From a virus, in the IMG/VR virus record IMGVR_UViG_3300045988_116487: a stretch of 18,759 bases of DNA, one strand, 5' to 3'. The position numbers and the translations under genes were made by a program. Positions 1,889 to 18,614 of this stretch are shown here, piece after piece (the stretch's first letter is position 1; the number at the start of each line of letters is the position of its first letter). The notes beneath the pieces were generated by a model. That model worked only from the letters and a program-made list of their open reading frames with translations. It was not told the origin of the DNA and ran no database searches.

Positions 1889-1909
1889 AACGAGATTGGG
1901 GGCAACATC

Positions 1910-3688: not shown

Positions 3689-5151
3689 GCGTCAAACCCA
3701 CCCCCAGCCTCAAACCACGCTACGCGACCCCGCGCAACCTTGCGCGTCCGACCGATGGCGGCAAGGAAGCCCGCATAGCCGAAGCGTTGGGCACCCCGTT
3801 CTTGCCATGGCAGCGCATGGTTTCCGACGTGTTCGGTGAGATAGACCCCGACACCGGCACCTACTATTACGACACTTTGGTGCTCACCGTGCAACGGCAG
3901 GCCGGGAAAACCACGCGCGAGCGGGCGACCGAAACCCGCAACGCGTTGTGGGGGCCGAACCGTCGTGTGTGGTATCTGGCGCAGACCGGCAAGGACGCAT
4001 CCCAGCAGTTCCGCGAGTACATCACCGGTTTCGACAAGTCTCCGCTGGCTCCGTTGGCCGCTTCCAAGCGCATGAGCAACGGCAGCATGTGCCTCACGTT
4101 GAAGAACGGCAGCACGATACAGCCGGGCGGCACGACCGACAGTGGCGGCCACGGCTTCCAGGGTGATTCGCTGACGTTGGATGAATGCTGGGCGCTGCCA
4201 GCCGACAAGGCCAAGGCGATCCTGGACGGTTTCCTTCCCACGACCACCACGCGTTTGAAGCTTACCGGCGTACGGCCACGGCTCACGTTCTGTTCGACCG
4301 AGGGCACGGCGGAATCCACGTTTTTCAATCCGAAGCTTGACGAGTTGCGGGCGATGATGGACGCGGGCGAACCCATGGGACGAACCTGCTTCTTCGATTT
4401 CGGTATACCGTTCGGCAGTGATCCCGAAGACTTGGACAACATTTGGGCGCATCATCCCGGTGCCGGGCATTTGTTCGACTACGACCAGTTGGCCGATTTC
4501 CGCCGTCAGTTCAGCCAGGACGCGGCGGGTTGGGCGCGTGCCTTCGGCAACTTGCGGGATTCGGGAATCATCGACCGTGCGATAGACCCGCAACTGTGGC
4601 AGTCCACCAGCGCCAACGCTATAGATCCGGCTGAGGCCACCGGGCGCGTGTGTTTCGGCGTGGCCGTGGCCATGGGAGGCATCGGCACCGCGATAGTCGC
4701 ATGCATCGAGACCGAGGCCGTGCCCCTGTTGCAGGTCGTGGACGTGTTGCCGGGAACCGGCAGCGCGCCGGAACGATTGAGGGAATTGCAGGAACGCTAT
4801 CACGCGCCCATCTGCATCGACATGCGTGGGCCGTCCGCGGCGTTGGCCGACCGGTTGCGTTTGAGCTTGGATGAATGGGGCATAGCCCGTTACGAGCTTG
4901 TGGATATGAGGGCGGCTGACGCGGTGACCGCGCCGCAGGCGTTCATGAGCGCGTTGGATCAGCACGCGGTGAATCACGCGCCCGATTCAGACATGGATCG
5001 TGAGGCGGGTTTGGCCGGTAAGCGCATGAGTGGTGACGCTTGGCTGTGGAACAGGGCTGAGGGCGTGAACGCGCCGACCATCGAGGCCGCGACGCTCGCC
5101 CTGTGGGGATTGACGCACATGCCCGACGACACACCGCCCGGAGTGTACTAA
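3685..5151 (+). CDS. terL: Terminase large subunit (488 aa)
   Basis: Walker A-like QRQAGKTT and Walker B-like SLTLDECW are present, with a C-terminal nuclease-size domain. The position is canonical, between TerS and portal. Confidence 0.95.
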   Translation: MSVKPTPSLKPRYATPRNLARPTDGGKEARIAEALGTPFLPWQRMVSDVFGEIDPDTGTYYYDTLVLTVQRQAGKTTRERATETRNALWGPNRRVWYLAQTGKDASQQFREYITGFDKSPLAPLAASKRMSNGSMCLTLKNGSTIQPGGTTDSGGHGFQGDSLTLDECWALPADKAKAILDGFLPTTTTRLKLTGVRPRLTFCSTEGTAESTFFNPKLDELRAMMDAGEPMGRTCFFDFGIPFGSDPEDLDNIWAHHPGAGHLFDYDQLADFRRQFSQDAAGWARAFGNLRDSGIIDRAIDPQLWQSTSANAIDPAEATGRVCFGVAVAMGGIGTAIVACIETEAVPLLQVVDVLPGTGSAPERLRELQERYHAPICIDMRGPSAALADRLRLSLDEWGIARYELVDMRAADAVTAPQAFMSALDQHAVNHAPDSDMDREAGLAGKRMSGDAWLWNRAEGVNAPTIEAATLALWGLTHMPDDTPPGVY

Positions 5152-5167
5152 AACGTGGCCGACGTGT

Positions 5168-5203
5168 CCGCTTATGGCCGCTATGGCCGCTTATGGCCGC
5201 TAT
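5168..5203. repeat. Short tandem repeat CCGCT(T)ATGG x3.5 in the terL-portal gap
   Basis: Units are ccgcttatgg, ccgctatgg, ccgcttatgg and ccgctat, followed by a T5 run. Seen directly in the sequence. Confidence 0.8.
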
Positions 5204-5222
5204 TTTTTGGCGTGGCGCTGCC

Positions 5223-6365
5223 ATGCCGCGCATCATGTCCGGCATGAGCATACGAGAGATGATGGCGAACATGTGGGGCGCGGTGAAGCGTTCCGCCAAT
5301 CGCGTGTCAAGCGTGGCGACCGCGCCGTTCCGCCGTCCGGCCGGGCGTGACCCGTTGAACATGTCGGTCGTGTTCCGAGGCGTGCAGATATTGCAGACCG
5401 CAGTCAGCGGCTTGCCCGTGCGCCAGTTGCGGCATGGCATGGCCGTGGAACCCGCGCGGATCGTGGAACGCCCGGACCCCGACACGTGGCGGGCGGACTT
5501 CATCAGCGAAACCGTCATGGGCTTGGCGTTGAACGGCAACGCGTTCTGGCTGAGGTTGAAGGGCGTGGACGGCTCAACCATCGGCTTGCGGAATCTGCCG
5601 CCAGCGTTGGTGAGCGTTTCCGACGCTCGCGGCGACATCGCCAACCCCGACAAGCGCTATTGGTACATGGGGCGCGAATACACGTCAAACGACATCATTC
5701 ATCTCAGATTCTTGAAGGTGCCGGGACGGTTGCGCGGCATGGGGCCCATCGAGGCGGCGCGCGAGGAGATCGAGGGAGCCATCGACGCGCGCGATTACAA
5801 ATCAAGGTATTTTTCCGAGGGCACGCATCCCACGGGCATCATCAGCACCGCGAAGCCGTTGAACGACGAAGTGGCCGAGAAGGTCAAGGAAAGTTTCAAG
5901 CGCAACGTCGATGACGTGAAGGTGCTCACCGGCGACCTGAAATACACCCAGCTGGCGCTGAGTCCCAAGGACATGCAGTTTCTGGAGACGCAGCAGTTCG
6001 ACACCACGCAGATAGCCCGCCTGTTGGGCATCCCCGCTTCGCTCATGCTCGCGGCGGTGGAAGGCTCGAACCTCACCTACAGCAATATCGAACAGGAATG
6101 GATACAGTTCGCGGACTTCACTCTTGAAGCCTACGCGCAGCCCATCGAACTCGCGTTGGGTGAGGTGCTGCCGCGCGGCACCAGCGTGGAACTCGACTGG
6201 GACAGCATGCGCCGAAGCGACACGAAGACCAAGGCCGAAACCTACCAGATTCTCATAGCGTGCAACGTGCTCACCGTAGATGAGGCGCGCGCCATGGAAG
6301 GCAGGCCACCACTACCCGCCGCACCAACCCCGCAACCATCGAACGACTTGGAGGAAACCGAATGA
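5223..6365 (+). CDS. Portal protein, HK97-type (about 380 aa; start ambiguous)
   Basis: Portal-typical motifs are present (NGNAFWLRL, FLETQQFDTTQIARLLGIPASLM). In-frame start candidates are 5193, 5223 and 5244, and none has a strong SD. The stop overlaps the next gene (ATGA at 6362). Confidence 0.9.
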   Translation: MPRIMSGMSIREMMANMWGAVKRSANRVSSVATAPFRRPAGRDPLNMSVVFRGVQILQTAVSGLPVRQLRHGMAVEPARIVERPDPDTWRADFISETVMGLALNGNAFWLRLKGVDGSTIGLRNLPPALVSVSDARGDIANPDKRYWYMGREYTSNDIIHLRFLKVPGRLRGMGPIEAAREEIEGAIDARDYKSRYFSEGTHPTGIISTAKPLNDEVAEKVKESFKRNVDDVKVLTGDLKYTQLALSPKDMQFLETQQFDTTQIARLLGIPASLMLAAVEGSNLTYSNIEQEWIQFADFTLEAYAQPIELALGEVLPRGTSVELDWDSMRRSDTKTKAETYQILIACNVLTVDEARAMEGRPPLPAAPTPQPSNDLEETE

Positions 6366-7933
6366 ACGAACGCAAGGAAATCGCCTACCGCGGCCTGAAA
6401 CTCCGCAAAGCATCAGATGGTGACGGGCGCAGCATCGAGGGCGTGGCCGTCCCGTTCGGTGACATCTACAACGACCCGTGGGACGGGGCGGAAACGTTCG
6501 ACCGTGACACCGTTTTCGAGAACGCCGACACGGCCAAGCTCTGCTACCAGCACGCCGAACTGATCGGCGCGATCACTTCGGCAGAGAACCGCGACGACGG
6601 GCTTCACATCGCCGCACGAATCGCTGACACCCAGCTTGGGCGCGATGCGGTGGCATTGATGGACGAAGGCGCGTTGGACTCGCTCAGCGTCGGATTCGTC
6701 CCGTTGGAGGACGAACGCGACGAAAACAACGTGACCCACCGCCGCCGCGTGCGCCTCCTGGAAGTGAGTTTGGTGAGCTGGCCCGCATACCAGAACGCCA
6801 AGGTGGAGAACCACCGCAACCTCAATACCGAGAACAGCCAGGAAAGGAACCACATGGAAAACGAAACCATCGAAAAGGTGCGCGCGGAACAGGCCGAACA
6901 GGCCGACGTGCTGCGCAGCATCCAGGCGAGCCTAGCCACCATGAACAACCATGGCAGCTCGAATCCCGCCGCATCCTACCGCAGCTACGGGCATCTGCTC
7001 AAGCAGCTCGCCAAGGGCGACGAACAGGCGCGCAACGACTACGAGCAGATCAGCAAGCGCGACTACACGGGCGGCGTGCTCGCCAACAGCGACCCGCAGC
7101 CGGTATGGATCAGCAACACGCTTCGCATCCTCGAACAGCGCCGCCGCATCACCAACCTCGTGTCACACGCCGCGCTGCCGTCCGAAGGCGAGACGCTGAG
7201 CTATCCCATCGTCACCGAGGACACCACCACCGTAAGCAAGCAGGCCAAGGAAGGCGACTACCTCCCCTATGGCGAGATCAAGATCGGGGCACGAACCGCG
7301 ACCATCGAAACCTACGGCGGCTACACGTCCCTGAGCCGCCAGGCCATCGAACGCGCCAGCGTGCCCTACTTGGACAAAACCCTTGAGGCGTTGGTCAAGG
7401 CGTACGCGCGCAACACCGAAGCCGCCACCCGCATCGCCCTCTACGGTGCCATCGGTGACGTGTCCGCCTCGGACAAAATCGACGCGGGCAAGGCATTGAC
7501 GGCGATGACCCCGAACGACTGGCTCGACATCATCATCGACGCGCGCCTTGAGGTTGAAGACCGCAACACATCATTGGACTATCTCGGCGTTTCCGGCGAC
7601 GTGTTCAAGGCCATCGCCCACCTGAGCGACGACGGCGACCGTTTCATGGACATCAGCGGCGGCGGCATCGACCGGCTCGGCAGCATCGACACGACCGACA
7701 TCACCGGTTCACTGCTTCGCGTGCCAGTGGTGCTCATGCCCGGCGCGGCCGCAGGAACCGCCGCGTTCCTCGACAAGGGAGCCGTGACCGTGTGGGAGAA
7801 CGGCAACAGCCCGTTCCAGCTCCAGGACGACAACGTACTCAACCTCACCAAAGACTTCAGCGTGTACGGCTACGCCGCGTTCGGCGTGACCTTGCCCGAA
7901 GGCATACTGCCCATCAAGTTCGCCAACGCCTGA
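6362..7933 (+). CDS. Prohead protease (S78/HK97-type) fused in frame to HK97-fold major capsid protein (523 aa)
   Basis: The N-terminal ~160 aa carry HK97-protease hallmarks (EGVAVPFG, CYQHAELIG, LDSLSVGF, LLEVSLVSWPAY). The remainder begins with a coiled-coil delta-like region (ETIEKVRAEQAEQADVLRS) and continues as a capsid-like sequence (ATIETYGGYTSLSRQAIERAS). There is no stop between the two parts. An internal SD-like gaaagga plus ATG lies at 6854. Confidence 0.9.
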   Translation: MNERKEIAYRGLKLRKASDGDGRSIEGVAVPFGDIYNDPWDGAETFDRDTVFENADTAKLCYQHAELIGAITSAENRDDGLHIAARIADTQLGRDAVALMDEGALDSLSVGFVPLEDERDENNVTHRRRVRLLEVSLVSWPAYQNAKVENHRNLNTENSQERNHMENETIEKVRAEQAEQADVLRSIQASLATMNNHGSSNPAASYRSYGHLLKQLAKGDEQARNDYEQISKRDYTGGVLANSDPQPVWISNTLRILEQRRRITNLVSHAALPSEGETLSYPIVTEDTTTVSKQAKEGDYLPYGEIKIGARTATIETYGGYTSLSRQAIERASVPYLDKTLEALVKAYARNTEAATRIALYGAIGDVSASDKIDAGKALTAMTPNDWLDIIIDARLEVEDRNTSLDYLGVSGDVFKAIAHLSDDGDRFMDISGGGIDRLGSIDTTDITGSLLRVPVVLMPGAAAGTAAFLDKGAVTVWENGNSPFQLQDDNVLNLTKDFSVYGYAAFGVTLPEGILPIKFANA

Positions 7934-9978: not shown

Positions 9979-10145
9979 CCGCGTGGCCTGACGACTCGCT
10001 AGGCCGTCTCTCTTGCCTGCTGTCCCGCTATTTCGGCGGCACCCCGTGGGAGTGGAGGGAGAAGGCAAGCGAATTTGATTGGGCGACGGCGGTGGAGATA
10101 TTGCAGGACGAAACCGAACGAATGGAGGAAAACGATGGCTCATAG
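9712..10145 (+). CDS. Tail assembly chaperone frameshift product, GT-like: join(9712..9969, 9969..10145), about 144 aa
   Basis: The -1 frame (tracked ORF 9780-10145) is open across the end of G and stops 11 nt into the tape-measure gene. A_AAC_CCT at 9963-9969 is the only X_XXY_YYZ heptamer near the G stop. Confidence 0.6.
9963..9969 (+). promoter_or_regulatory. Candidate -1 programmed ribosomal frameshift heptamer A_AAC_CCT
   Basis: In the G frame the codons are gca AAC CCT. Slipping back one nt gives AAA CCC and then continues in the open -1 frame (YALTAWPDDS...). Confidence 0.5.
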
Positions 10146-12072
10146 CGCGATCATGTCGGTGCGCATCACCGGCAACAGTGACGACGCGGTGAAGGCGTTC
10201 CAGAAGGCCACCAGCAAGGCGGCGGCGTTCGGCAGCTTCATGGGCGGTGCCGCGTTGAAGGGCGTGACCGAGTTGTGGGACAAGCTCAAGGACTTCGGCG
10301 GCGCTGTCATCGACATGAGCGACAGCACCGACAAGTTCGTGCAGACCATGAACTTCGCGGGCATCGACACGTCGAACGTGGAGAAGGCGTCACAGGCGGC
10401 GCGCGACTACGCCGACCGCACCGTGTACGACCTCTCAACGATACAGAACACCACCGCCCAGTTGGCCGCGAACGGCATCAGCGACTACACCGGTTTGACC
10501 GAGGCGGCGGGCAACCTGAACGCCGTGGCGGGCGGCAACGCCGACACGTTCAAAAGCGTGGCGATGATGCTCACCCAGACGGCTGGCGCGGGCAAGCTCA
10601 CGACCGAGAACTGGAACCAGTTGGCCGACGCCATCCCCGGCGCTTCGGGCAAACTCCAGGAAGCCATGCTCAAGAACGGCGCGTACACGGGCAATTTCCG
10701 CGACGCGATGGAAAAGGGCGAGATATCGGCGGACGAGTTCAACAAGGCCATCATGGACTTGGGCATGAGCGACGTCGCCAAGGAAGCCGCATCGAGCACG
10801 AAGACCATGGAAGGCGCGTTGGGCAATCTGGAAGCCGCCATAACAGGCGGACTCACAGACGCGTTCGACCTGTTCAAACCCACGGTGACCGGAGCGCTCA
10901 CCGAAGCCGCCGACAGCGTGAGCGATTTCGCCGCGAAAGCCACCGGAGGATTGAAGCAGTTCACCGACTCCATAAGCAAGACTGGAGCGTTCCAATCCCT
11001 CGCGGACACCGTGAAGGCCGTGGGCGGCGCGCTCGGCTCGATGGGCCAGGCGTTCTCCGACATCGCCACCACGATAGCGCCCGGACTGCAAGGATTGTCC
11101 GACGCGGGAAGCATCGGCACGCAGTTGGGCGACGCGTTCAACGGCGCGGCCGGTATCATCCAGGCGGTGGCCGACAAGCTCACCCAGTTCGGTGATTGGG
11201 TCAGCGCGAACGCCGAACCCATCGCGGGCGCGCTGGTGGCCATCGGCGGCGGACTCGCCGCGTTCAAGGTGGCCAGCGCCATCAGCGCCGTGGTGGCCGC
11301 GTTGCAGGGCTTCAGCATCGCCGCGACCGCCGCCGAAGTGGCGCAATGGGCGTTGAACGTCGCCATGAACGCGAACCCAATCATGATCGTGGTCACCGCC
11401 ATAGGCGCGTTGGTGGCCGCGCTGGCGTGGTTCTTCACCCAAACCGAAACCGGGCGCAACATCTGGAGCCAGTTCACCGCGTTCATGGGCGGATGCGTGA
11501 ACAACATAATCGGTTTCTTCCAAGCGTTGCCCGGCAGAATCGGCGCGTTCTTCCAGAACGCGGCACAAGGCGCGCAGAACGCATGGAACGGCGTGGTCGG
11601 CTTCTTCTCCAGCATCCCAGGCCGTATCCTCTCCGCATTGGGCAACGTGGGCGGCCTGCTCGTGAACGCCGGCAAAAGCATCATAGACGGTTTCCTCCGG
11701 GGATTGAAAAGCGCATGGGACGGCGTGACCGGTTTCGTGGGAGGCATAGCCGACTGGATCACCTCGCACAAGGGGCCGATCAGCTACGACCGTCGCCTGC
11801 TGATCCCGCACGGCAAAGCCATCATGGCGGGCTTCGCCCAGGGACTTGAAACAGGTTTCCAAGGCAAGGTGAGGACCGCCATCGCATCCGTCAACACCAG
11901 CCTAGCGTCAACGAGCATGTCCGCCATGCTCAACGGAACACGGGCGGGCTTGGCGGGCACGACCGTGGGCAACAACTACGAGGGGCACATCGACGGCACC
12001 GTGGCGGACCCGGACGGCACCGCCAAGGCCATCCGCAAACTCCTAGCCGATTACGAGGGTGTGCGACGCTGA
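10135..12072 (+). CDS. Tape measure protein (645 aa)
   Basis: Long Ala/Gly-rich helical protein with a central hydrophobic block (IAGALVAIGGGLAAFKVASAISAVVAAL ... IMIVVTAIGALVAALAWFF). ATG 10135 is preceded by ggagga. It follows the chaperone pair. Confidence 0.9.
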   Translation: MAHSAIMSVRITGNSDDAVKAFQKATSKAAAFGSFMGGAALKGVTELWDKLKDFGGAVIDMSDSTDKFVQTMNFAGIDTSNVEKASQAARDYADRTVYDLSTIQNTTAQLAANGISDYTGLTEAAGNLNAVAGGNADTFKSVAMMLTQTAGAGKLTTENWNQLADAIPGASGKLQEAMLKNGAYTGNFRDAMEKGEISADEFNKAIMDLGMSDVAKEAASSTKTMEGALGNLEAAITGGLTDAFDLFKPTVTGALTEAADSVSDFAAKATGGLKQFTDSISKTGAFQSLADTVKAVGGALGSMGQAFSDIATTIAPGLQGLSDAGSIGTQLGDAFNGAAGIIQAVADKLTQFGDWVSANAEPIAGALVAIGGGLAAFKVASAISAVVAALQGFSIAATAAEVAQWALNVAMNANPIMIVVTAIGALVAALAWFFTQTETGRNIWSQFTAFMGGCVNNIIGFFQALPGRIGAFFQNAAQGAQNAWNGVVGFFSSIPGRILSALGNVGGLLVNAGKSIIDGFLRGLKSAWDGVTGFVGGIADWITSHKGPISYDRRLLIPHGKAIMAGFAQGLETGFQGKVRTAIASVNTSLASTSMSAMLNGTRAGLAGTTVGNNYEGHIDGTVADPDGTAKAIRKLLADYEGVRR

Positions 12073-13601
12073 TGGCACAACAACCATTCATGTACTTGGA
12101 CACCGGCGACGGGTGGAAGCCGGTCAACGACCATCGGCAGGACATCGCCGCGTTGGATGATTTCACGATTTCGTGGGGAGCCGACGACCCCGTGAGCCAA
12201 CCCGATCCGGCGGTGCTCACGTTCGACCTGATCGACCGGGCTGGCGACTTTGCCGGCAAGGCCGTCACATTGTCGGGCTCGCGCGCGCTGGTGCAACTCA
12301 GCGCGGAACCCACGTGGGACATGCTGCCCGACAGCATGGGCGCATGGGAGCGGATACGCGGCACCATCGCCCAACTGTACCAGCAATACGTGCCCACGGC
12401 TCCAGAAGCTCCGGGCGAGAACGTGCCCACCCTGTTCATCGGCACGATAGGCCATGGCGGCACCGTCACCGACTTGGGCAACAGGTGGCGCATCCATTTG
12501 ACCGCCACAAGCCTGATGGTCATGTGGGAACGCCTGCAATCACAAGGCCCCACCAGCGGTGAGGCGAAGCACGCGGGACGCCATTGGGTCGGCACCCCGG
12601 CCGCGCGGTTGGCGGAACTCAACAAGCGCGCCCAACAGGCGGGCGCTCCCATAGCCGAACCCCAATCGTTGCAATTGCCCCCGGCAGTCGCCACGTACAA
12701 GACCGACGATTACCCGTCGCAACTTGACTTGCTGTCGCGCATGTACGCGCACGTCATGCCCGCGCCCGCATGGTACGAGCATTACCAGGGTGAAACCATC
12801 ACCCTCCGCCCGCTGTCGTTGGCCGGATCGGTGCAGGTGCATGTGGGCGTGGATGGCATGCCGTACGTGCTCGTGGACGGCCAACACCGTGACACGTTGC
12901 CAGCGAATCTCGTGGCCGGCGATTTGGAACTGTCCATCATGGAGCCGGTCACGCAGGCCGTGGCCAAAACCAAACGCGCGAAGAACAACGACGGCGTGGT
13001 GGAATACGACGACATGGAAACCGTCTACACGGACATGAACCGTTTGCCCACCCGGCTCACGGACACGCAGAAAAGCGTCACGGCCGATTCGGACGCCGTG
13101 GCCGGCGACGACTCGGGCGGTTTGCACACGGGCGGCACGTTCGCCCCGTCCGACGCGCAACGGCAGGCGGCGGCATCGTGGATCGTCACGCACGACACCC
13201 GGCTGCGCAACGAGTCCATTAAGTTCATTGGAACGAACCTAGACCCGGTGTCGTTCCCGCACCTGTTCCGTCCCGAACCCTCCGGTCCCGTGCTTATCAC
13301 CGGCATACGTTTGAGCACGTTGAACGGCATGGACGGGCGACCGGCGTTCTCCGGCGCGTTCACGACCATCGGCGGGCGTATCACGTTCACCCACAAGCGG
13401 GGCATGACCCATGAAGCGACCATGTACCCGCTCGACTCCACAGCGAACACCGGCATGCGCTGGCAGGACTTCACGGACTGGCCGGCCACATTCGCGCAAT
13501 GCGTGTTCACGTTCGCGGAATTGACAGGGTTCACAGTTTTCGACAAACCGACAAGCACGACCGGCATCGACCGGCCGAACTGGGAAGGAAACCAAGAATG
13601 A
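12072..13601 (+). CDS. Minor tail protein (509 aa), distal-tail/baseplate candidate
   Basis: ATG 12072 overlaps the tape-measure TGA. It is the only large ORF between the tape measure and the fibre. The function is positional. Confidence 0.8.
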   Translation: MAQQPFMYLDTGDGWKPVNDHRQDIAALDDFTISWGADDPVSQPDPAVLTFDLIDRAGDFAGKAVTLSGSRALVQLSAEPTWDMLPDSMGAWERIRGTIAQLYQQYVPTAPEAPGENVPTLFIGTIGHGGTVTDLGNRWRIHLTATSLMVMWERLQSQGPTSGEAKHAGRHWVGTPAARLAELNKRAQQAGAPIAEPQSLQLPPAVATYKTDDYPSQLDLLSRMYAHVMPAPAWYEHYQGETITLRPLSLAGSVQVHVGVDGMPYVLVDGQHRDTLPANLVAGDLELSIMEPVTQAVAKTKRAKNNDGVVEYDDMETVYTDMNRLPTRLTDTQKSVTADSDAVAGDDSGGLHTGGTFAPSDAQRQAAASWIVTHDTRLRNESIKFIGTNLDPVSFPHLFRPEPSGPVLITGIRLSTLNGMDGRPAFSGAFTTIGGRITFTHKRGMTHEATMYPLDSTANTGMRWQDFTDWPATFAQCVFTFAELTGFTVFDKPTSTTGIDRPNWEGNQE

Positions 13602-14191
13602 AAACCACACCCACCTACGGCATCAGCTACATAGAAGGCAGCGACCTAGTATCGAACGCGGCCGCTGGTTTCAAAAAGGCGGCGGAAACCACGGAAGCCG
13701 CGTTGAAACTGGTGGACCAGCGTTCGACCATCGAGGGCGTGAAGCCCGCCATAGCGGGCACGCTCGCCACGCTCGCCACGATGAGAGGCGCCACCGGCCA
13801 AACCGGCTACGTGACCTCAGACGGCAATAACAACGGGCCTTACTGTTGGAACGGTTCGGCATGGGTGAAATACGCGCAGAACACGCAAATCAACTCATTG
13901 CAATCGCAGATCGCCGCGATAACACAGGGTTACGAGTCCGGCACCGTCACCCTCCAGACAACACAGTTGGGTGCGGCCTCGGTCAGGTTCGCCAAGCACA
14001 AGACCAAACCCAAGGCCGTGCTCGTAACCCGCGTCAGAAATAACCAAGACGGCGACGACAGAGCCAGAATCTTCAACCCGATAGTGTGGGATATCACCGC
14101 CACCGAGTTCCAAGTGCGTTTCTGGCGTCTGGACACGCACAACTGGGCCGAGTCCTGGCCGCTCACGTTCTCTTACCTAGCCATCTGGTGA
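13598..14191 (+). CDS. Tail fibre / receptor-binding protein, expressed variant A (197 aa)
   Basis: ATG 13598 in an ATGA overlap with the upstream gene. The N-terminal TYGISYIEGSD motif and GPYCWNGSAWVKY are common in actinophage fibre proteins. A short coiled coil (NTQINSLQSQIAAIT) follows, then an 84-aa C-terminal domain that starts just after inverted repeat IR-L. Confidence 0.85.
   Translation: MKTTPTYGISYIEGSDLVSNAAAGFKKAAETTEAALKLVDQRSTIEGVKPAIAGTLATLATMRGATGQTGYVTSDGNNNGPYCWNGSAWVKYAQNTQINSLQSQIAAITQGYESGTVTLQTTQLGAASVRFAKHKTKPKAVLVTRVRNNQDGDDRARIFNPIVWDITATEFQVRFWRLDTHNWAESWPLTFSYLAIW
13923..13942. repeat. IR-L: left inverted repeat / candidate recombination site inside the fibre gene
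   Basis: cacagggttacgagtccggc. The reverse complement of 14439-14458 is cacagggttatgagttcggc, giving 18/20 identity with the first 10 nt perfect. It encodes QGYESG in the fibre frame. Confidence 0.8.
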
Positions 14192-14192
14192 C

Positions 14193-14438
14193 CTACTTCC
14201 AGAGGGCGAGCCAGTAGAACTTCGTCGGCTGATTGGCGGCCCAGGCGTTGCTATCGTTCCTGCGGAACCTGACTTGAGCGCCATTATTGGTCAGCTCGTA
14301 CACCATTGGGCTCAGGAATCGGTCGAGATCATCGGACGGCGTTCTCGCCAGCATCACCAGCATTGCCTGAGGAGACGTGGAGTGTCGGACCCAATTGACG
14401 GTGGCCACACCGTTTTGATCGGTGCTTGCGTCGACCAC
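14193..14438 (-). CDS. Silent alternative fibre C-terminal cassette B (no ATG or RBS of its own; in-frame homology extends to 14456)
   Basis: The minus-strand frame reads SQGYEFGVVDASTDQNGVATVNWVRHSTSPQAMLVMLARTPSDDLDRFLSPMVYELTNNGAQVRFRRNDSNAWAANQPTKFYWLALWK. It aligns along its length with variant A (QGYESGTVTLQTTQLGAASVRFAKHKTKPKAVLVTRV...FQVRFWRLDTHNWAESWPLTFSYLAIW). Upstream in frame there is only a stop (14493-14495) and no ATG. The tracked M is a GTG inside the homology. Confidence 0.75.
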   Translation of the reverse strand: MVDASTDQNGVATVNWVRHSTSPQAMLVMLARTPSDDLDRFLSPMVYELTNNGAQVRFRRNDSNAWAANQPTKFYWLALWK

Positions 14439-14458
14439 GCCGAACTCATAACCCTGTG
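14439..14458. repeat. IR-R: right inverted repeat / candidate recombination site
   Basis: gccgaactcataaccctgtg on the plus strand, the inverted partner of 13923-13942. It lies 24 nt upstream of the next gene's ATG (14483) and leaves that gene's RBS outside the segment. Confidence 0.8.
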
Positions 14459-14482
14459 ATCCCGTCTCATTTGAAAGGAAAC

Positions 14483-14752
14483 ATGGTGGATTTCATCACC
14501 GCGATAGCCGGCGCGTGCGGCGTCGCGTTCGGCGCTGCCGTGCAGGCCGTTGTGGCGTGGCTCAACAACAAAGCCACCCACGAGGAAAACAGCGCCGACA
14601 TGCTCCACGAAGCGCAAACAGAACTCAAGGACACCATGGCCGACATGAATCTGTTGTGGGAGCATAACCGCGCGCTCATCGACCACATATACAGGGGCGC
14701 GCCACCACCCCCGCCGAACCCGCCCGAAGGCTTGTTCAAACACGACAACTAA
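14483..14752 (+). CDS. Single-pass membrane protein of the lysis cassette (89 aa; holin-like or lysis accessory)
   Basis: ATG 14483 with gaaaggaa upstream. It has an N-terminal TM helix (FITAIAGACGVAFGAAVQAVVAWL), then a coiled coil and a Pro-rich tail. It lies immediately upstream of the endolysin. Confidence 0.7.
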   Translation: MVDFITAIAGACGVAFGAAVQAVVAWLNNKATHEENSADMLHEAQTELKDTMADMNLLWEHNRALIDHIYRGAPPPPPNPPEGLFKHDN

Positions 14753-14764
14753 AAGGACACAACA

Positions 14765-15649
14765 ATGGCATTGAACATCAAACAAGTGCCCAGCCCGAAC
14801 CATTACAACGGGCGCAACGGGCATCGGGTGACTCACATCACCCTGCACATCATGGTCGGCCGTCTCGCCGGCACCGACGCCGTTTTCCAGCGGCCGAGTT
14901 CGCAGGCTTCGGCCCATTACGGCATCGGCGGCACGGGTGAGATTCACCAGTACGTGAGCGAAGCCAACGGCTCATATTCCGACGCGAATTTTTCGAGCAA
15001 CAACAGCACCATCAGCATCGAGCATGAAGGCGGTATGGCCGGTGTGCCCATGACCGACGCATGCGTGGAGGCGTCCGCACAGTTGTGCGCGGACATTAGC
15101 CGCCGTTACGGGCTCGGCAAGCTCTGGCACGACGGGTTGAACGGCAACGTGTGGCTGCACCGCGAGATACCCGGCACGGACCATTACGGATGCCCCGACC
15201 GAGCACCGAACGGTCTGCCCGTCCAACGGGTCATCGACCGCGCCAATCAATTGTTAACCAATCCATCTAGTCAAGGAGAAACAGAAATGAGCACAGCACT
15301 GGTTATCTGGGACGACGACAGCGGCGTGGGCTACTACTGGAGCCCCGAAACCGGCCGCGTCGGCCTATCACACCCGGACCAGGTCGTGGTGTTGAAGAAC
15401 GCCGGCGTGAAAGAGATTCACAGCAGCAAGAAAGCCCCGTGGGCGGCGCGCGCCGATCAAATCAGCCAATTCGTGCAGGCCAAGACGACCGCGTACGAGA
15501 AGGCTCAGACGGCCGCGTTGGAGGCCATGGCCAAGAGCATCGGCGCGGACCCGAACACCATCGCCGACACCGTGCGCAAGGCCGTGGAAAGCAAGTTGGC
15601 CACGCTCGACATCCAGATCACCACCAAGGACAAGGGGACGGGCAAATGA
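14765..15649 (+). CDS. Endolysin: N-acetylmuramoyl-L-alanine amidase (Amidase_2/PGRP-type) plus C-terminal domain (294 aa)
   Basis: VTHITLHIMVG ... AHYGIG ... NNSTISIEHEG ... LHREIPGTDHYGCP is the Amidase_2 zinc-amidase pattern. The C-terminal 120 aa follow an AT-richer linker that contains a perfect internal AAGGAG (15273-15278) and an in-frame ATG at 15287. Confidence 0.9.
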   Translation: MALNIKQVPSPNHYNGRNGHRVTHITLHIMVGRLAGTDAVFQRPSSQASAHYGIGGTGEIHQYVSEANGSYSDANFSSNNSTISIEHEGGMAGVPMTDACVEASAQLCADISRRYGLGKLWHDGLNGNVWLHREIPGTDHYGCPDRAPNGLPVQRVIDRANQLLTNPSSQGETEMSTALVIWDDDSGVGYYWSPETGRVGLSHPDQVVVLKNAGVKEIHSSKKAPWAARADQISQFVQAKTTAYEKAQTAALEAMAKSIGADPNTIADTVRKAVESKLATLDIQITTKDKGTGK

Positions 15650-15906
15650 GCGACCCCGTGAATACTCCGGGAGTGGCCGACCACAAGGCCACCGGCAGCA
15701 TGGACGCGGAGAAGGGCTACACGCCCGTGTTCAACAACACCGTGCGCACCATCGCGTATGTGGCCGGTCTCATCGCCGTAGCGGTCGGTTTCGGTTTCAC
15801 CCAGTTCGGTGACCCGACCGTGGGCGATTACATCACCACCGTGGGCGGTCTTATCGCTGGTGGTTTCGGCGTGGCATACAATCCGCTGCGCATGGCCGGA
15901 AAGTAG
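15646..15906 (+). CDS. Holin, two transmembrane segments (86 aa)
   Basis: ATG 15646 in an ATGA overlap with the endolysin stop. It has two hydrophobic helices (TIAYVAGLIAVAVGFGF, ITTVGGLIAGGFGVAY). The position after the lysin is typical of actinophages. Confidence 0.8.
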   Translation: MSDPVNTPGVADHKATGSMDAEKGYTPVFNNTVRTIAYVAGLIAVAVGFGFTQFGDPTVGDYITTVGGLIAGGFGVAYNPLRMAGK

Positions 15907-15913
15907 CCCAATC

Positions 15914-16399
15914 ATGACGATGGTGCACATACGATTACGCGCCCCGACCAACGGCGGCACCCGTGCCGGCGTCGGCATGGTCGTGTTCCAACCATCCGCC
16001 CGTCATACCGACGACGCAAGTGTGGTGTTGCCCGACACGTTCACCGTGGTGCTGGACGAAGAAGGCGAAGCCACCGTGGACATCCAGCCCACCGGTCCCG
16101 ACTGGTGTTGGAAAACCGACGAGCAAGTGCCCTACGGGTCTATTCGCTGGTTCACCGTGCCCGACACGGCCGGCACGCTGGAATACGCGGAACTTACGGA
16201 CGTGGACCCGCGCACGTTCAAACCGGGACGCAACCTCGCCGCATGGCAGGCCGTCACCGGCGACATCAAAACCATGATCGACAGCATGCCCCGGTTCCTC
16301 ACCGGGCACGGCTCCCCGACCATCGACGGCAAGCCGGGTGACATCTACCTCGACTTGGACACCATGGACCTCTACACCAACAACCAAGAAAGGAACTAA
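15914..16399 (+). CDS. Minor tail / fibre-like protein encoded downstream of the lysis cassette (161 aa)
   Basis: The pattern VVFQP...[23 protein letters not shown]...[26 protein letters not shown] and the C-terminal [16 protein letters not shown] resemble conserved actinophage minor tail proteins, as I recall them. The start is uncertain (15914 or 15920) and there is no clear SD. Confidence 0.65.
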
Positions 16400-16401
16400 C
16401 C

Positions 16402-16665
16402 ATGGCATTCGGAAAAATCGGCAGTCTTCGCGGCGAACAGGGACCACAGGGCCCACGCGGACCCGAGGGACCGCAGGGGCCGCAGGGCGACAGGGGCGAT
16501 CCGGGCCCCGCCGGAGCCAGGGGCGAAACCGGCGCGCCCGGCCCCGCTGGTCCGGCGGGTCCGGGCATCGTGTTCACCCAGGGTGCTCCCACCGGCAGCG
16601 GCGTGGCCGGCGCGATGTACGTGGACAAAACCACGTTCGATGTGTACGTGTGGAGAGCCGACTAA
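16402..16665 (+). CDS. Collagen-like (Gly-X-Y) fibre protein (87 aa)
   Basis: RBS gaaagga, ATG 16402. A run of about 18 Gly-X-Y triplets ([45 protein letters not shown]) is followed by [15 protein letters not shown]. Confidence 0.8.
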
Positions 16666-16778
16666 TGGCCTACGACCGCATCGGCAATCTGAAAGGCAGC
16701 ACGCCCGATGACGCCAAGCTCCGCGCGTTGATTCTCGCGGTGTTGAAGACCGTCACATGGGCGCAACTGTCAGGCTGA
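16665..16778 (+). CDS. 37-aa ORF resembling only the N-terminal start of a fibre protein
   Basis: TAATG overlap with the collagen-like gene. [16 protein letters not shown] parallels the [14 protein letters not shown] start of the preceding gene. Its 3' end overlaps the convergent recombinase gene by 9 nt. Confidence 0.4.
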   Translation: MAYDRIGNLKGSTPDDAKLRALILAVLKTVTWAQLSG

Positions 16779-17597
16779 GAGCAGCACGGCGGCCATGCCC
16801 GCGCGCAGCCGTTCGTCTGGCATTGCCACGTACACCTGTGTCGTTTCCACGCTCGCGTGACCGAGCAGCTTGGACACCAGCAGCAGGTCGTGCGTGGCTT
16901 GCCACGTGGCGGTAGCATACCGGTGGCGCAGGCTGTGCGCGGTCCATCCGTCACCGAGCAGGCTCGACAGTCTGTCGCCTATGTAGCTTTCCTCGACGTG
17001 CCCGCCGAACCGGCCGGGGAACACGTACCCATCGCACGCGCTTATCAGGTCGGCCAAGTCGTCGGGTAACGGCACTATGCGCTGTTTGTCGCCCTTGCCA
17101 TTGACCACCAGCGACCGGCCAACGAGATCGTCAACCACGTCGCCGCTGGACACCCGGCCTATCTCGCCACGCCTTAAACCGCACTCGGCACCGAGCCGCA
17201 GCATGATTCTCTCGGACTCGCTGGCACGCCCCAACGCGGCCAATATCACCTTGTCCGGGCACGGGCGCGGATGAGGTCTAGGACGTTTGGTTTTAGGCAG
17301 TTCCATGCTTGGGTCATCATTGCGCCGGCCGGTCTGCCGCATCCATGCGAAGAAGCTGGACACCGTGTTGCGGTACGCTTTGCGTGTTTCCGGTTTCCAG
17401 GATTGCGAGGCGAACCACTGTGTCATCATCTCGCAGGTGACTTCATACGGCGAGACACCCAGACATACGGCCGTGTATGTCATTTTTCGCCGTCTGGTCA
17501 ATAGTGTTTGCTCGCTGCGGCCACCGGCCTTCAGTGCCGCGAGCCATCCGGTCAATTCCTCACGCCATAACGGGGGCGCTACCCATTTTTTCGTCAT
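16770..17597 (-). CDS. Tyrosine recombinase 1 (275 aa, short Xer/Rci-like; candidate fibre invertase)
   Basis: Catalytic signature present: ECGLRRGEI (Arg I), GKGDKQRIVP (Lys), HSLRHRYAT (His-x-x-Arg), LLGHASVETTQVYVAM (His, Tyr). A SAM-like N-domain is present and no long arm-binding domain is apparent. It is a paralog of the 17790-18614 product. Confidence 0.9.
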   Translation of the reverse strand: MTKKWVAPPLWREELTGWLAALKAGGRSEQTLLTRRRKMTYTAVCLGVSPYEVTCEMMTQWFASQSWKPETRKAYRNTVSSFFAWMRQTGRRNDDPSMELPKTKRPRPHPRPCPDKVILAALGRASESERIMLRLGAECGLRRGEIGRVSSGDVVDDLVGRSLVVNGKGDKQRIVPLPDDLADLISACDGYVFPGRFGGHVEESYIGDRLSSLLGDGWTAHSLRHRYATATWQATHDLLLVSKLLGHASVETTQVYVAMPDERLRAGMAAVLLSA

Positions 17598-17613: not shown

Positions 17614-17657
17614 CGCCGCTAAACTTAGAATCAGCCGGGGCATGGATTTGGACCTTG

Positions 17658-17705
17658 GACCTCTGGGATACCCAGAGGTCACAGGTTCAAATCCTGTCCC
17701 CGCTA
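17658..17705 (+). other. attP core region: 10-3-10 palindrome plus the 3' part of a tRNA-Met-like gene (not a functional tRNA)
   Basis: 17671-17705 (cccagaggtcacaggttcaaatcctgtccccgcta) reads as the anticodon-stem 3' strand, variable loop, T-arm (ACAGG-TTCAAAT-CCTGT), acceptor 3' strand and discriminator of a Met-type tRNA, as I recall those sequences. The left arm gacctctggg (17658-17667) is a perfect inverted copy of cccagaggtc (17671-17680). The would-be anticodon loop is only 3 nt (ata). Confidence 0.7.
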
Positions 17706-17789: not shown

Positions 17790-18614
17790 GTGAAAAAACA
17801 ACATCCAGCCCCACTCTGGGCAGAATCTATCAACATGTGGCTCGACTCACTGAAGGCGGCGGGCTACTCCACCAACACGCTCAACACGCGGCGCTGCCAG
17901 ATGAGCGCACTGTCGCGGGCGCTTGAGGGCGATCCTAAGGACGTGGAAGGCGACGACCTGCTCGCCCACTTCGCCGCGAAGGACTGGAAGCCCGAGACAC
18001 GCAAGGGCGCGAAGAACGCCTGCGTCAGCTATTTCCGATGGCTCAAAGCGTCCGGCCGCAGCGAGGCCGATCCGAGCGAGTTCCTACCCACCGTCAAGCG
18101 TCCCGAACCGCATCCCCGGCCATGCCCGGACGTGGTCATACTCACCGCACTGCGCAAGGCCACGGACAGCGAACGGCTCATGCTGCGTCTCGGCGCGGAA
18201 TGCGGTTTGAGACGCTTCGAGATAGCGAAGGTGCACAGCCGCGACGTCATGCGCGACCTCGTGGGCTGGAGCCTCGTCGTCGTAGGCAAGGGCGACAAGC
18301 AACGCATCGTGCCGATCGGCGACGACCTCGCCCTGCTGATCCGCTCCGCCCACGGCTATCTGTTCCCCGGCCGGTGGAGCGGCCACGCCGAATCATCCTA
18401 CGTCGGCCGACACCTGAGCGACCTCTTGGGCGACGGATGGACGGCCCACAGCCTGCGCCACAGGTACGCGACCACGACCTACGCCGCCACACGAGACCTG
18501 CTGCTCGTCTCCAAGCTCTTGGGGCACGCCTCGGTCGAGACCACGCAACGGTACATCGCCATGCCCGACGACCGGCTGCGCGCCGCAGTGGAAGCCACGC
18601 GCCTCGCCGCATGA
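17790..18614 (+). CDS. Tyrosine recombinase 2 (274 aa; candidate integrase)
   Basis: GTG start supported by alignment with the paralog (KKQHPAPLW vs TKKWVAPPLW). Same catalytic signature: ECGLRRFEI, GKGDKQRIVP, HSLRHRYAT, LLGHASVETTQRYIAM. It lies just downstream of the tRNA fragment in the same orientation, the usual tRNA-int arrangement. Confidence 0.9.
   Translation: MKKQHPAPLWAESINMWLDSLKAAGYSTNTLNTRRCQMSALSRALEGDPKDVEGDDLLAHFAAKDWKPETRKGAKNACVSYFRWLKASGRSEADPSEFLPTVKRPEPHPRPCPDVVILTALRKATDSERLMLRLGAECGLRRFEIAKVHSRDVMRDLVGWSLVVVGKGDKQRIVPIGDDLALLIRSAHGYLFPGRWSGHAESSYVGRHLSDLLGDGWTAHSLRHRYATTTYAATRDLLLVSKLLGHASVETTQRYIAMPDDRLRAAVEATRLAA

What the first reader, a model, noticed from the sequence alone, without database searches (positions are those of the whole stretch)
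13923..14458. Invertible DNA switch that would exchange the receptor-binding C-terminus of the tail fibre
Seen directly: a 20-bp sequence inside the fibre gene (13923-13942, cacagggttacgagtccggc) recurs inverted at 14439-14458 with 18/20 identity, the first 10 nt perfect. In both copies the repeat is read in the same codon register (Q-G-Y-E). Between the repeats lie two tail-to-tail cassettes whose stop codons are 1 nt apart. Cassette A is the current 3' end of the fibre gene (84 aa after E113). Cassette B is antisense and has no ATG or RBS of its own. Its in-frame homology starts exactly at the repeat (QGYEFGVVDAS...). It aligns end to end with A but is strongly diverged (for example VRFAKHKTKPKAVLVTRV vs VNWVRHSTSPQAMLVMLA, and FQVRFWRLDTHNWAESWPLTFSYLAIW vs AQVRFRRNDSNAWAANQPTKFYWLALWK). 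Inversion would give an in-frame 196-aa fibre with a different tip. The downstream gene's RBS (14472-14480) stays outside the segment. Nucleotide conservation confined to the junction, against diverged cassettes, is the signature of site-specific inversion systems such as Gin/Cin/Min and the R64 shufflon. No serine invertase is encoded here, only two tyrosine recombinases. That would make this a tyrosine-recombinase host-range switch, comparable to the Rin system I recall being described for bifidobacterial prophages. Here it is a minimal two-cassette form located before the lysis genes.
Basis: partly seen in the sequence, partly recalled or inferred. Interest (0 to 1): 0.9.

Follow-up and report, generated by a model that had tools for sequence, protein, structure and literature searches.

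The report
Invertible phage tail-fibre tip switch
A small Bifidobacterium prophage carries a 0.5-kb DNA segment that flips to give its tail fibre one of two lectin-like tips; public data show both states in near-identical phages, but this locus was already described as 'putative' in 2018 and its recombinase is still unknown.

Summary
The main interpretation, an inversion that swaps the fibre's C-terminal tip, is strongly supported.

- The predicted flipped 196-aa protein exists in public data: 48 protein clusters at 91-97% identity over the full length.
- Contigs 98-99% identical to the window carry exactly this segment inverted, with the breakpoints inside the repeat.
- 64 related loci keep the core CAGGGTTA unchanged on both arms. 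Four different cassette pairs occur in both orientations.
- One pair of phages differs at 3 of 5000 left-flank bases and 1 of 532 segment bases, yet has opposite orientation.
- Both tips are predicted to fold as H-type-lectin-like domains, as found at the ends of phage tailspikes and pyocin fibres.

It is not new. Mavrich et al. [quoted passage not shown] They found it in the about 18-kb tRNA-Met-integrated prophages 689b-1 and Bb423phi2, with inversion at CAGGGTTA and no flanking recombinase. It is not the Rin shufflon.

The enzyme remains unidentified. Of the two tyrosine recombinases in the window, 16770-17597 is the prophage's arm-less integrase and is present in every relative. The other, 17790-18614, belongs to a neighbouring element.

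The parts
13598..14191 (+). Tail-fibre / receptor-binding-protein gene, 197 aa, currently carrying tip A
   Evidence: It follows the tape measure gene (10075-12072) and a 509-aa minor tail protein gene. AF2 model has pLDDT 87. Fold matches are actinophage minor tail proteins, tail fibres and H-type lectins.
13598..13924 (+). Constant N-terminal part of the fibre (codons 1-109): globular domain followed by a helix (residues 95-107)
   Evidence: 93-99% identical in all loci, whichever tip is attached.
13923..13942 (+). Left inverted repeat. The core CACAGGGTTA is at 13923-13932 and the invariant 8-mer CAGGGTTA at 13925-13932.
13925..14191 (+). Cassette A, the expressed tip (Q110-W197 plus stop)
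   Evidence: The same cassette is found silent and antisense in loci that express tip B.
14193..14456 (-). Cassette B, the silent tip (87 codons plus stop, no start signal of its own)
   Evidence: It is found fused in frame to the constant part in 48 protein clusters and in loci L001-3, L010, L011 and others.
14439..14458 (-). Right inverted repeat (core at 14449-14458). Its outer flank is 2 bp shorter than in many relatives.
13933..14448 (.). Invertible segment between the two cores (516 bp; 524 bp from core start to core start)
   Evidence: Window 13918-14458 aligns to L001 in reverse orientation at 98%, while both flanks align forward at 98.4-98.9%.
14472..14752 (+). RBS and 89-aa gene downstream of the switch (holin position). 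It lies outside the segment.
   Evidence: The amidase gene follows at 14765-15649.
16770..17597 (-). rec1: arm-less tyrosine integrase of the prophage. It is the only recombinase of the phage and a candidate invertase (inference).
   Evidence: Pfam Phage_integrase. 44% identical to integrases of cluster G mycobacteriophages and Gordonia phages. Best PDB match is 5VFZ Gp33, E 1e-28. Present in every relative that has enough downstream DNA.
17630..17700 (.). Attachment-site remnant: the 3' half of tRNA-Met and its inverted copy, forming a near-palindrome
   Evidence: The complete tRNA-Met lies at the other prophage end in relatives.
17790..18614 (+). rec2: a paralogous tyrosine integrase (62% identical to rec1) that belongs to a neighbouring element and is not part of the switch-bearing phage
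   Evidence: In chromosomal relatives, host genes follow rec1 directly. In L001 and L002, rec2 is followed by BrnT/BrnA.

Best explanation
The 0.5-kb segment 13933-14448 is a reversible, site-specific inversion module (a genetic switch). It lies inside the late operon of an about 18-kb Bifidobacterium prophage that integrates at tRNA-Met.

**How it works.** Recombination between the two inverted copies of the asymmetric core CA-CAGGGTTA flips the segment. One copy sits at codons 109-112 of the fibre gene. The other sits just upstream of the next gene's RBS. After a flip, the constant N-terminal 109 residues are joined in frame, at Q-G-Y-E, to tip B (196-aa protein) instead of tip A (197 aa). 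The displaced tip is stored antisense and without a start signal.

**What the tips are.** Both are about 88-residue H-type-lectin-like beta-sandwiches, of the kind found at the distal ends of phage tailspikes and pyocin fibres. The switch therefore most likely changes which cell-surface glycan the virion binds.

**Shown:** the architecture, the existence of both states in near-identical phages, and breakpoints confined to the 8-bp core.

**Inferred:** that the exchange is catalysed by a tyrosine recombinase. My single most likely candidate (about 0.4) is the prophage's own arm-less, Brujita/BPs-type integrase at 16770-17597. About equally likely is a host enzyme acting in trans. That the tips determine host range is also inferred.
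For: **1. The flipped product exists.** A query made of window residues 1-109 plus cassette B found 48 clusters of 196-aa proteins at 91-97% identity and 100% coverage. Some have 190-360 member sequences.

**2. The inversion is precise.** Against L001, window 13000-13942 and 14439-15000 align forward (98.9% and 98.4%). Window 13918-14458 aligns in reverse (98.0%).

**3. Many loci, both orientations.** 64 loci carry the switch, with CAGGGTTA exact on both arms.
- A-on/B-off 24 loci, B-on/A-off 20.
- A/C 3, C/A 2.
- D'/I 4, I/D' 3.
- G/H 2, H/G 1.
- Twelve of the A-on loci came from exact-protein look-ups, so they are not independent.

**4. The flips are recent.** L007 (A-on) and L033 (B-on) differ at 3 of 5000 left-flank bases and at 1 of 532 segment bases once one segment is reverse-complemented. 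Orientation is scattered over the tree built from flanking sequence.

**5. The crossover is confined to the core.**
- Bases from +1 onward always travel with the cassette (A: CGAGTCCGGC; B: TGAGTTCGGC; C: TGAGGCCGGC).
- The polymorphic base at -1 stays with the flank. The left/right combinations are A/A 41, G/G 20, A/G 3 and G/A 0, and the A/G loci occur in both orientation states.

**6. The constraint acts on the DNA.** The core uses GGT and TAY codons in a genome with GC3 of about 0.8. It is invariant across tip families that are 31-48% identical or not homologous at all.

**7. Silent cassettes are maintained.** 39 of 40 are full-length, and pN/pS is similar for silent and expressed copies.

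**8. Fold.** The A-form model (pLDDT 87) and the B-form model (pLDDT 85) have the same topology. Both hit Helix pomatia agglutinin, phage phi297/LKA1/AP22 tailspike C-termini and R-pyocin fibre feet. In BFVD they hit actinophage minor tail proteins, tail fibres and 'H-type lectin domain' proteins.

**9. Literature.** The same inversion, at the same 8-bp sequence, was seen between prophages 689b-1 and Bb423phi2 (PMC6109161).

**10. In favour of rec1 as the enzyme.**
- It is the only recombinase gene of the phage.
- It is present in all switch-bearing loci of both phage lineages at 60-100% identity.
[quoted passage not shown] This is the title of Lunt & Hatfull 2016, cited; I could not read the paper.
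Against: - No read-level evidence of mixed orientations within one culture or sample was available. The rate of switching is therefore unknown.
- No recombinase adjoins the segment; rec1 is 2.3 kb away.
- The core is absent from the att region. The integrase's att sequences do not resemble the inversion site convincingly: 10/19 against the T-arm by hand comparison.
- Integrase variants only 60-66% identical accompany the identical core. This fits a host enzyme at least as well as the phage integrase.
- The window's right arm lacks the extra outer identity (GATAAC) seen in many relatives. However, loci with this shorter arm also occur in both orientations.
- Receptor binding by the tips is inferred from fold and gene position only. 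Foldseek E-values are modest (1e-3 to 4e-6).
- Mavrich et al. saw no induction of Bb423phi2, so it is unproven that virions are made.
Confidence: 0.88

Rival explanations
1. The switch is real but is flipped by a host-encoded recombinase acting in trans, as Mavrich et al. proposed. Candidates are XerC/XerD or another chromosomal tyrosine or serine invertase. The phage integrase plays no part.
For: - No recombinase flanks the segment.
- The identical core accompanies integrases that are only 60-66% identical.
- Many relatives show a dif-like dyad ATAA-N7-TTAT across the left arm.
- The paper suggests a trans-acting invertase.
Against: - The switch works in phage lineages found in several Bifidobacterium species, so the host enzyme would have to be universal.
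- The window-type right arm lacks the ATAA dyad yet occurs in both orientations.
- All the classical phage tail-fibre switches encode their own invertase (my own knowledge of Gin, Cin, Min and Rin).
Confidence: 0.4
2. The two orientations arose by rare RecA-dependent homologous recombination or gene conversion between short repeats. Under this reading the locus is an evolutionary fossil of duplication and inversion, not a working switch.
For: Only comparative, between-sample evidence is available. No within-population heterogeneity was shown here.
Against: - Perfect identity between the arms is only 10-18 bp.
- Breakpoints always fall in the same 8-bp core.
- Some cassette pairs are not homologous, so nothing but the core can pair.
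- Near-identical phages differ in orientation.
- At least four cassette pairs each occur in both states.
- Synonymous positions of the core are invariant.
Confidence: 0.06
3. Cassette B is an independent small antisense gene (annotated as BB139W423_0332-like, 56-93 aa in gene calls). It would be a paralogue of the fibre tip with its own function, and the repeat would be a by-product of shared ancestry.
For: Gene callers predict 56-93-aa ORFs there. An in-frame GTG exists at 14438.
Against: - Homology starts exactly at the repeat, upstream of any start codon, with no Shine-Dalgarno sequence.
- The cassette is found fused to the constant part in many phages.
- The called ORF lengths vary with chance start codons.
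Confidence: 0.04
4. The opposite orientations in databases are assembly artefacts at an inverted repeat.
For: Most of the supporting contigs come from metagenome assemblies.
Against: - The perfect repeat (10-18 bp) is shorter than the k-mer sizes assemblers normally use (my own knowledge).
- Both states occur in contigs of up to 0.6 Mb, in NCBI genome assemblies, and in the published isolate genomes.
- The flipped protein is seen in hundreds of independent sequences.
Confidence: 0.01

Closest known systems
The 'second putative phase variation system' of the tRNA-Met-integrated bifidoprophages 689b-1 and Bb423phi2 (Mavrich et al. 2018, Sci Rep 8:12772, PMC6109161)
   Same: - Same phage group: about 18 kb, at tRNA-Met next to metA.
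[quoted passage not shown]
- The same 8-bp boundary CAGGGTTA.
- No flanking recombinase.
   Different: Nothing essential differs. The paper had two genomes and called both genes 'function unknown'. This analysis adds:
- 64 loci;
- about nine tip families, in two phage lineages;
- near-identical phages in opposite states;
- a lectin-like tail-fibre fold;
- the point that the phage's only recombinase is its arm-less integrase.
Rin shufflon of the dnaJ2-integrated bifidoprophages (Bb423phi1, Bl157phi1, Bl30698phi1; same paper)
   Same: An inversion that fuses a constant N-terminal part of the receptor-binding protein to alternative C-terminal cassettes of about 90-100 residues. It uses a short asymmetric crossover site, occurs in Bifidobacterium prophages, and has a presumed tyrosine recombinase.
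   Different: - Rin has an adjacent dedicated rin gene, 4-5 Rv cassettes and the 11-bp rix site TTCCCTAACCC.
- Here there are two cassettes, no adjacent recombinase and a different core. rix is absent.
- The two sites share only the hexamer GGGTTA.
Gin (Mu), Cin (P1), Pin (e14) and Min (p15B) tail-fibre inversion systems
   Same: The biological logic is the same: a flip of a DNA segment exchanges the C-terminal, receptor-binding part of a tail fibre between alternatives stored in opposite orientation.
   Different: - Those systems use serine invertases encoded next to the segment, 26-bp sites with a 2-bp crossover, and a Fis-dependent enhancer (my own knowledge).
- No serine recombinase is encoded in this window.
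The fim switch (FimB/FimE) and the R64 shufflon (Rci): tyrosine-recombinase inversions
   Same: Short inverted repeats (9 bp in fim, my own knowledge) whose outer half-sites are poorly conserved. Here the outer flanks vary while the core and the inner arm are conserved.
   Different: - fim flips a promoter, not a coding cassette.
- Rci acts on seven sfx sites and is encoded beside the shufflon.
- Here the enzyme is unknown.
Brujita/BPs-type arm-less integrases of integration-dependent immunity phages
   Same: rec1 is 44% identical to cluster G mycobacteriophage and Gordonia phage integrases. Its best PDB match is 5VFZ Gp33, which I recall as the Brujita integrase. Like them it lacks an arm-binding domain and sits next to att.
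   Different: No member of that family is known to me to mediate a programmed inversion elsewhere in the phage genome. Here that role is only a hypothesis.

Membership tests
Second bifidoprophage inversion locus (Mavrich 2018) | The inversion boundaries lie at the 8-bp sequence CAGGGTTA | tested here: met
   CAGGGTTA is present at 13925-13932 (+) and 14449-14456 (-) and nowhere else in the window. It is invariant in 64 related loci. Paper text.
Second bifidoprophage inversion locus (Mavrich 2018) | [quoted passage not shown] | tested here: met
   Core-to-core distance is 524 bp. The segment holds cassette A (the 3' end of the 197-aa gene) and the antisense cassette B.
Second bifidoprophage inversion locus (Mavrich 2018) | Host element is an about 18-kb prophage integrated at tRNA-Met next to metA, with an integrase at one end | tested here: met
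   - Relatives sharing the window's small terminase protein lie between tRNA-Met/HTS (metA) and rec1.
- The last 39 bases of that tRNA are the exact reverse complement of the paper's attR.
- The window itself lacks the extreme left end.
Second bifidoprophage inversion locus (Mavrich 2018) | Both orientations are observed among related prophages | tested here: met
Rin shufflon | rix crossover site TTCCCTAACCC upstream of each cassette | tested here: not met
   No match in the window, even allowing 1 mismatch.
Rin shufflon | A dedicated recombinase gene (rin) flanking the cassette array | tested here: not met
   The segment is flanked by the fibre constant part and a holin-position gene. The nearest recombinase is 2.3 kb downstream and is the integrase by homology.
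Rin shufflon | Three or more Rv cassettes allowing multiple inversions | tested here: not met
   There are exactly two cassettes in all 64 loci.
Serine-invertase tail-fibre switches (Gin/Cin/Pin/Min) | A serine recombinase (resolvase/invertase) encoded next to the invertible segment | tested here: not met
   Pfam scans of 38 ORFs across the window found only Phage_integrase domains.
Serine-invertase tail-fibre switches (Gin/Cin/Pin/Min) | 26-bp gix/hix-type sites with a 2-bp crossover, plus a Fis-bound enhancer | not testable with these tools
   By eye the site has no gix/hix-like 12-2-12 dyad. The crossover is mapped only to within the 8-bp core. The staggered-cut length needs biochemistry.
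Tyrosine-recombinase inversion systems (generic) | Strand exchange within a 6-8-bp asymmetric overlap that is identical in both partner sites | tested here: inconclusive
   The exchange is confined to an asymmetric 8-bp stretch that is identical in both arms. This is compatible with the feature but does not exclude a serine enzyme.
Tyrosine-recombinase inversion systems (generic) | A cognate tyrosine recombinase shown to act on the sites | not testable with these tools
   Needs co-expression or mutant assays.
Arm-less integration-dependent-immunity integrases (rec1) | About 275 aa, with core-binding and catalytic domains only, homologous to Brujita/BPs integrases, and adjacent to att | tested here: met
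   - 275 aa, with the Phage_integrase domain at residues 122-260.
- 44% identical to cluster G and Gordonia phage integrases.
- PDB 5VFZ E 1e-28 over residues 25-268.
- The att remnant starts about 33 bp from its start codon.

The most novel reading that the evidence does not exclude
The prophage's single arm-less integrase would do two jobs: integration at tRNA-Met and programmed inversion of the tail-fibre tip. That would make this 18-kb phage the first case of a phage integrase doubling as a host-range invertase.

A possible trace of this is that the inversion site parses as CAGGG|TTATGAG|NNCGG. It shares a 10-nt exact match (CTCATAACCC, shuffle p about 0.003, chosen post hoc) with the anticodon arm of the tRNA-Met gene the phage integrates into.

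Separately, and already shown here, the same 10-bp core serves as a universal docking point. Through it at least nine tip families, some not homologous to each other, are exchanged between two phage lineages.
Probability: 0.3. Interest if true: 0.7.

Novelty: already known. Interest (0 to 1): 0.35.

Why it matters
Bifidobacteria are key members of the infant and adult gut. Their phages have never been propagated lytically, and what determines their host range is unknown.

This small prophage is very common. The window's small terminase protein is indexed in more than 4,600 blocks of the public assembly collection. A working tip switch in such a phage would help explain how it persists across strains whose surface glycans differ. 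It also offers a natural library of lectin-like tips.

The open point is the recombinase. If it is the arm-less integrase, this would be a compact example of one recombinase serving two programmes. If it is a host enzyme, it would be a phage trait controlled in trans. As a discovery, however, the locus is already published.

Tried and rejected
- **Phage database.** Megablast of 12000-16000 against INPHARED phages found no match. These prophages are not deposited as phage records.
- **GTDB representatives.** A protein-guided scan of representative genomes found no relative.
- **RNA genes.** ARAGORN and Rfam found nothing in the window. The tRNA-like stretch at 17630-17700 is only a 3' half.
- **Published att.** The paper's 39-bp att was not found in the window at up to 3 mismatches. 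The copy beside rec1 is a diverged variant.
- **Profile-guided locus search.** It failed because no block was conserved enough.
- **More distant fibres (207-231 aa).** They lack QGY and have no convincing inverted repeat. Their tail-to-tail antisense open frames are best read as an effect of high GC content.
- **Contig ends at the repeat.** I looked for these as a sign of mixed orientations in one sample. L038 is merely chimeric.
- **Site against the tRNA T-arm.** I compared the inversion site with this likely integrase core by hand. It matches 10/19, which is not significant.
- **dif-like parse of the left arm.** Rejected as a requirement, because arms of the window type lack it and still flip.
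- **Anticodon-arm match.** I kept the 10-nt match only as a lead. The att common core starts after the anticodon loop, and the centre of the att palindrome varies between integrase variants.
- **Literature.** Lunt & Hatfull 2016 could not be retrieved.
Full report
**1. The observation**

13923-13942 is CACAGGGTTACGAGTCCGGC. 14439-14458 reads CACAGGGTTATGAGTTCGGC on the other strand. That is 18/20, with the first ten bases identical.

It is the only inverted pair of that quality within 1 kb in the whole 18.7-kb window. Dinucleotide shuffles give 0.05 such pairs per window.

The gene 13598-14191 encodes 197 aa, and Q110-G-Y-E113 lies on the repeat. The opposite strand, read from 14456, gives QGYEFGVVDAS... 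for 87 codons. It stops 1 nt from the fibre's stop codon.

The two tips are 42% identical end to end (E 7e-23). Both have the GC3 bias of coding sequence. No start codon or ribosome-binding site precedes the point where homology begins. The next gene's RBS and ATG (14472-14485) lie outside the segment.

**2. The surroundings**

The window is almost all of a small siphovirus-type prophage. In order it carries:

| Coordinates | Feature |
|---|---|
| 2369-3208 | HNH/AAA protein |
| 3377-5151 | terminase |
| 5103-6365 | portal |
| 6362-7933 | protease-capsid fusion |
| 10075-12072 | tape measure |
| 12072-13601 | 509-aa minor tail protein |
| 13598-14191 | the fibre |
| 14483-14752 | holin-position gene |
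| 14765-15649 | amidase |
| 15646-16778 | membrane protein, tail-like protein, collagen-repeat protein and a 38-aa ORF |
| 16770-17597 (minus strand) | 275-aa tyrosine recombinase, rec1 |

Beyond a tRNA-derived near-palindrome (17630-17700) lies a second recombinase, rec2 (17790-18614), 62% identical to rec1.

**3. Does the segment really invert?**

I built the protein the flip would make (residues 1-109 plus cassette B) and searched 5.8 billion proteins with it.
- 48 clusters of exactly 196 aa matched at 91-97% identity over the full length. Several represent 190-360 sequences.
- The unflipped form is likewise abundant.

In a contig encoding one of the flipped proteins (L001), both flanks align forward to the window at 98.4-98.9%. 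Window 13918-14458 aligns in reverse at 98.0%. This is a clean inversion with both breakpoints in the repeat.

Across all fetched loci, 64 carry the module with CAGGGTTA exact on both arms.

The tips fall into families A-E (31-48% identical to each other). Further tips occur in a second phage lineage: G, H, D', I and J. Some of these are not homologous to the lectin-like ones.

Four different pairs occur in both orientations:

| Pair | First tip on | Second tip on |
|---|---|---|
| A/B | 24 | 20 |
| A/C | 3 | 2 |
| D'/I | 4 | 3 |
| G/H | 2 | 1 |

Twelve of the A-on loci were fetched by exact-protein look-ups and are not independent.

L007 (A-on) and L033 (B-on) differ at 3 of 5000 left-flank bases. 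Once one segment is reverse-complemented, they differ at 1 of 532 segment bases. Orientation is scattered over the tree built from flanking sequence. Inversion is therefore recurrent and recent relative to point mutation.

**4. Where the exchange happens**

Everything from the first base after CAGGGTTA travels with the cassette. The one polymorphic base just before it stays with the flank. The left/right combinations are A/A, G/G and A/G, never G/A, and the A/G loci are found in both states. The crossover is thus confined to the asymmetric 8-bp core, as Mavrich et al. inferred.

The outer flanks are poorly conserved (ATAACR, GGATCA, CTGACA, GGTTCA, TAATCA). The inner arm keeps YGAG-NN-CGG.

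The window's right arm is 2 bp shorter than in many relatives and lacks the extra GATAAC identity. Loci with this shorter arm still occur in both states (window and L014-20 against L010, L025, L031, L032 and L039). This window's switch is therefore probably functional.

The core uses GGT and TAY codons in a genome with GC3 of about 0.8, and it never varies. That points to selection on the DNA rather than on the protein.

**5. What the protein is**

AF2 models of the A form (pLDDT 87) and of a natural B form (pLDDT 85) share one layout:
- an N-terminal domain;
- a helix at residues 95-108;
- a six- to seven-stranded C-terminal beta-sandwich that starts at the QGYE junction.

Foldseek places the tip with several groups:
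- H-type lectins (Helix pomatia agglutinin, SLL-2, discoidin);
- the C-terminal domains of phage tailspikes (phi297 gp61, LKA1 gp49, AP22 gp54);
- R-pyocin fibre feet;
- in BFVD, actinophage minor tail proteins, tail fibres and 'H-type lectin domain' proteins.

E-values are modest (4e-6 to 1e-3), but the picture is consistent for both tips.

The tip domain also ends a 1041-aa phage protein with a YQBQ-like domain.

Silent cassettes are intact in 39 of 40 loci. A crude pN/pS is above 1 for expressed and silent copies alike. This fits diversifying selection on cassettes that take turns being expressed.

A second phage lineage has a constant part only about 50% identical, yet carries near-identical A and B tips joined at the same T-QGYE codons. 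The core therefore also acts as a module boundary for exchange between phages.

**6. The recombinase**

rec1 is present at 97-100% identity in every close relative that has enough downstream DNA. It is present at 60-66% identity in the second lineage.

rec2 is found only in the window, L001 and L002. There it is followed by BrnT/BrnA and another prophage. In chromosomal contigs, host genes (GlgE and others) follow rec1 directly. rec2 therefore belongs to a neighbouring element.

rec1 is the prophage integrase by homology:
- 44% identical to integrases of cluster G mycobacteriophages and small Gordonia phages;
- best PDB match 5VFZ 'Gp33', E 1e-28, which I recall as the Brujita integrase;

No other recombinase domain was found in 38 ORFs.

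Two readings remain. Either the integrase moonlights as the invertase, or a host enzyme acts in trans. I rate them about equal (0.4 each).

One lead favours a link to tRNA-Met. The site shares 10 consecutive bases (CTCATAACCC) with the anticodon arm of the tRNA-Met gene used for integration (shuffle p about 0.003, chosen post hoc). Three points weaken it:
- the att common core begins after the anticodon loop;
- the centre of the att palindrome varies among integrase variants;
- the core is absent from att.

**7. Comparison with what is known**

Mavrich et al. 2018 (PMC6109161) describe exactly this locus. In the two about 18-kb tRNA-Met-integrated prophages 689b-1 and Bb423phi2, an about 500-bp sequence is inverted between the two genomes at CAGGGTTA. 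It contains a small gene and the 3' end of its neighbour. They found no flanking recombinase and no identifiable gene function.

Relatives of the window sit between tRNA-Met/metA and rec1. The last 39 bases of that tRNA are the exact reverse complement of the paper's attR.

The locus is not the Rin shufflon of the same paper. The rix site is absent, no rin gene adjoins it, and it has two cassettes rather than four or five. It works like Gin/Cin/Min but encodes no serine invertase.

**8. Verdict**

- The inversion-switch interpretation is supported.
- The attribution to the two tyrosine recombinases is unproven, and for rec2 unlikely.
- The system is already known.

This analysis adds population-scale support, a catalogue of tips, a fold assignment, and a sharpened question about the enzyme. 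Interest is moderate to low.

Noticed in passing
window 17630-17700 (also L016 14000-14075): A near-palindrome lies next to the start of rec1: GGGGCATGGATTTGGACCTTGGACCTCTGGG-ATA-CCCAGAGGTCACAGGTTCAAATCCTGTCCCC.
- The right arm is the displaced 3' half of tRNA-Met.
- The left arm is its inverted copy on the phage side.
- In relatives the two arms change together (for example GGGTTTGGACCGTGG with CCACGGTCCAAACCC).
- The centre differs between integrase variants: ATA, CAACCATGTT, GCAACAACGTTA or TATCC.
   Followed up: partly
window 17790-18614; L001 14231-15646; L002 14244-20591: A second arm-less integrase, 62% identical to rec1 and ending in ...RLAA (ssrA-like), is transcribed away from the att palindrome. 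In relatives it is followed by BrnT/BrnA and another prophage that carries a reverse transcriptase. It looks like a second element at the same att. L122 shows a tandem copy of the same phage after the integrase.
   Followed up: partly
window 15914-16778: Three tail-like genes lie downstream of the lysis genes.
- A 161-aa protein whose N-terminus matches minor-tail PHROGs.
- An 87-aa collagen-repeat protein whose length varies between relatives (73, 87 or 99 aa; 182 aa in L046).
- A 38-aa ORF that starts [11 protein letters not shown], resembling the collagen protein's [11 protein letters not shown].
   Followed up: partly
window 13925-14456 and the same cassettes in 40 loci: A crude pN/pS of 1.6-2.8 in the tip cassettes, for expressed and silent copies alike, against about 1.1 in the constant part. 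Counts are small and recombination is not modelled.
   Followed up: partly
L056-L068 (second phage lineage): The same core joins the fibre to tips with no detectable homology to the lectin-like ones: QGYWSTGSS... (91 aa), QGYESAKFTW... (121 aa) and QGYGLPIVKAG... (about 100 aa). The exact inverted repeat reaches 18 bp in the D'/I pair.
   Followed up: partly
window 6362-7933 and 2369-3208: The prohead protease (Peptidase_S78) is fused to the major capsid protein in one 523-aa ORF. An HNH endonuclease is fused to an AAA_33 kinase-like domain upstream of the terminase.
   Followed up: no
proteins P0298 and P0311 (found): The tip-like domain recurs at the C-terminus of a 1041-aa phage protein with a YQBQ-like domain. 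It also matches, more weakly, stretches of a 2476-aa protein that Pfam annotates with repeated Big_1/invasin Ig-like domains.
   Followed up: no
window 1-2300: The left 2.3 kb has weak coding signal (few ORFs with high GC3) and no Pfam hits. The window starts inside an XRE-type HTH gene, so the extreme left end of the prophage, with the intact tRNA-Met, is not included.
   Followed up: partly
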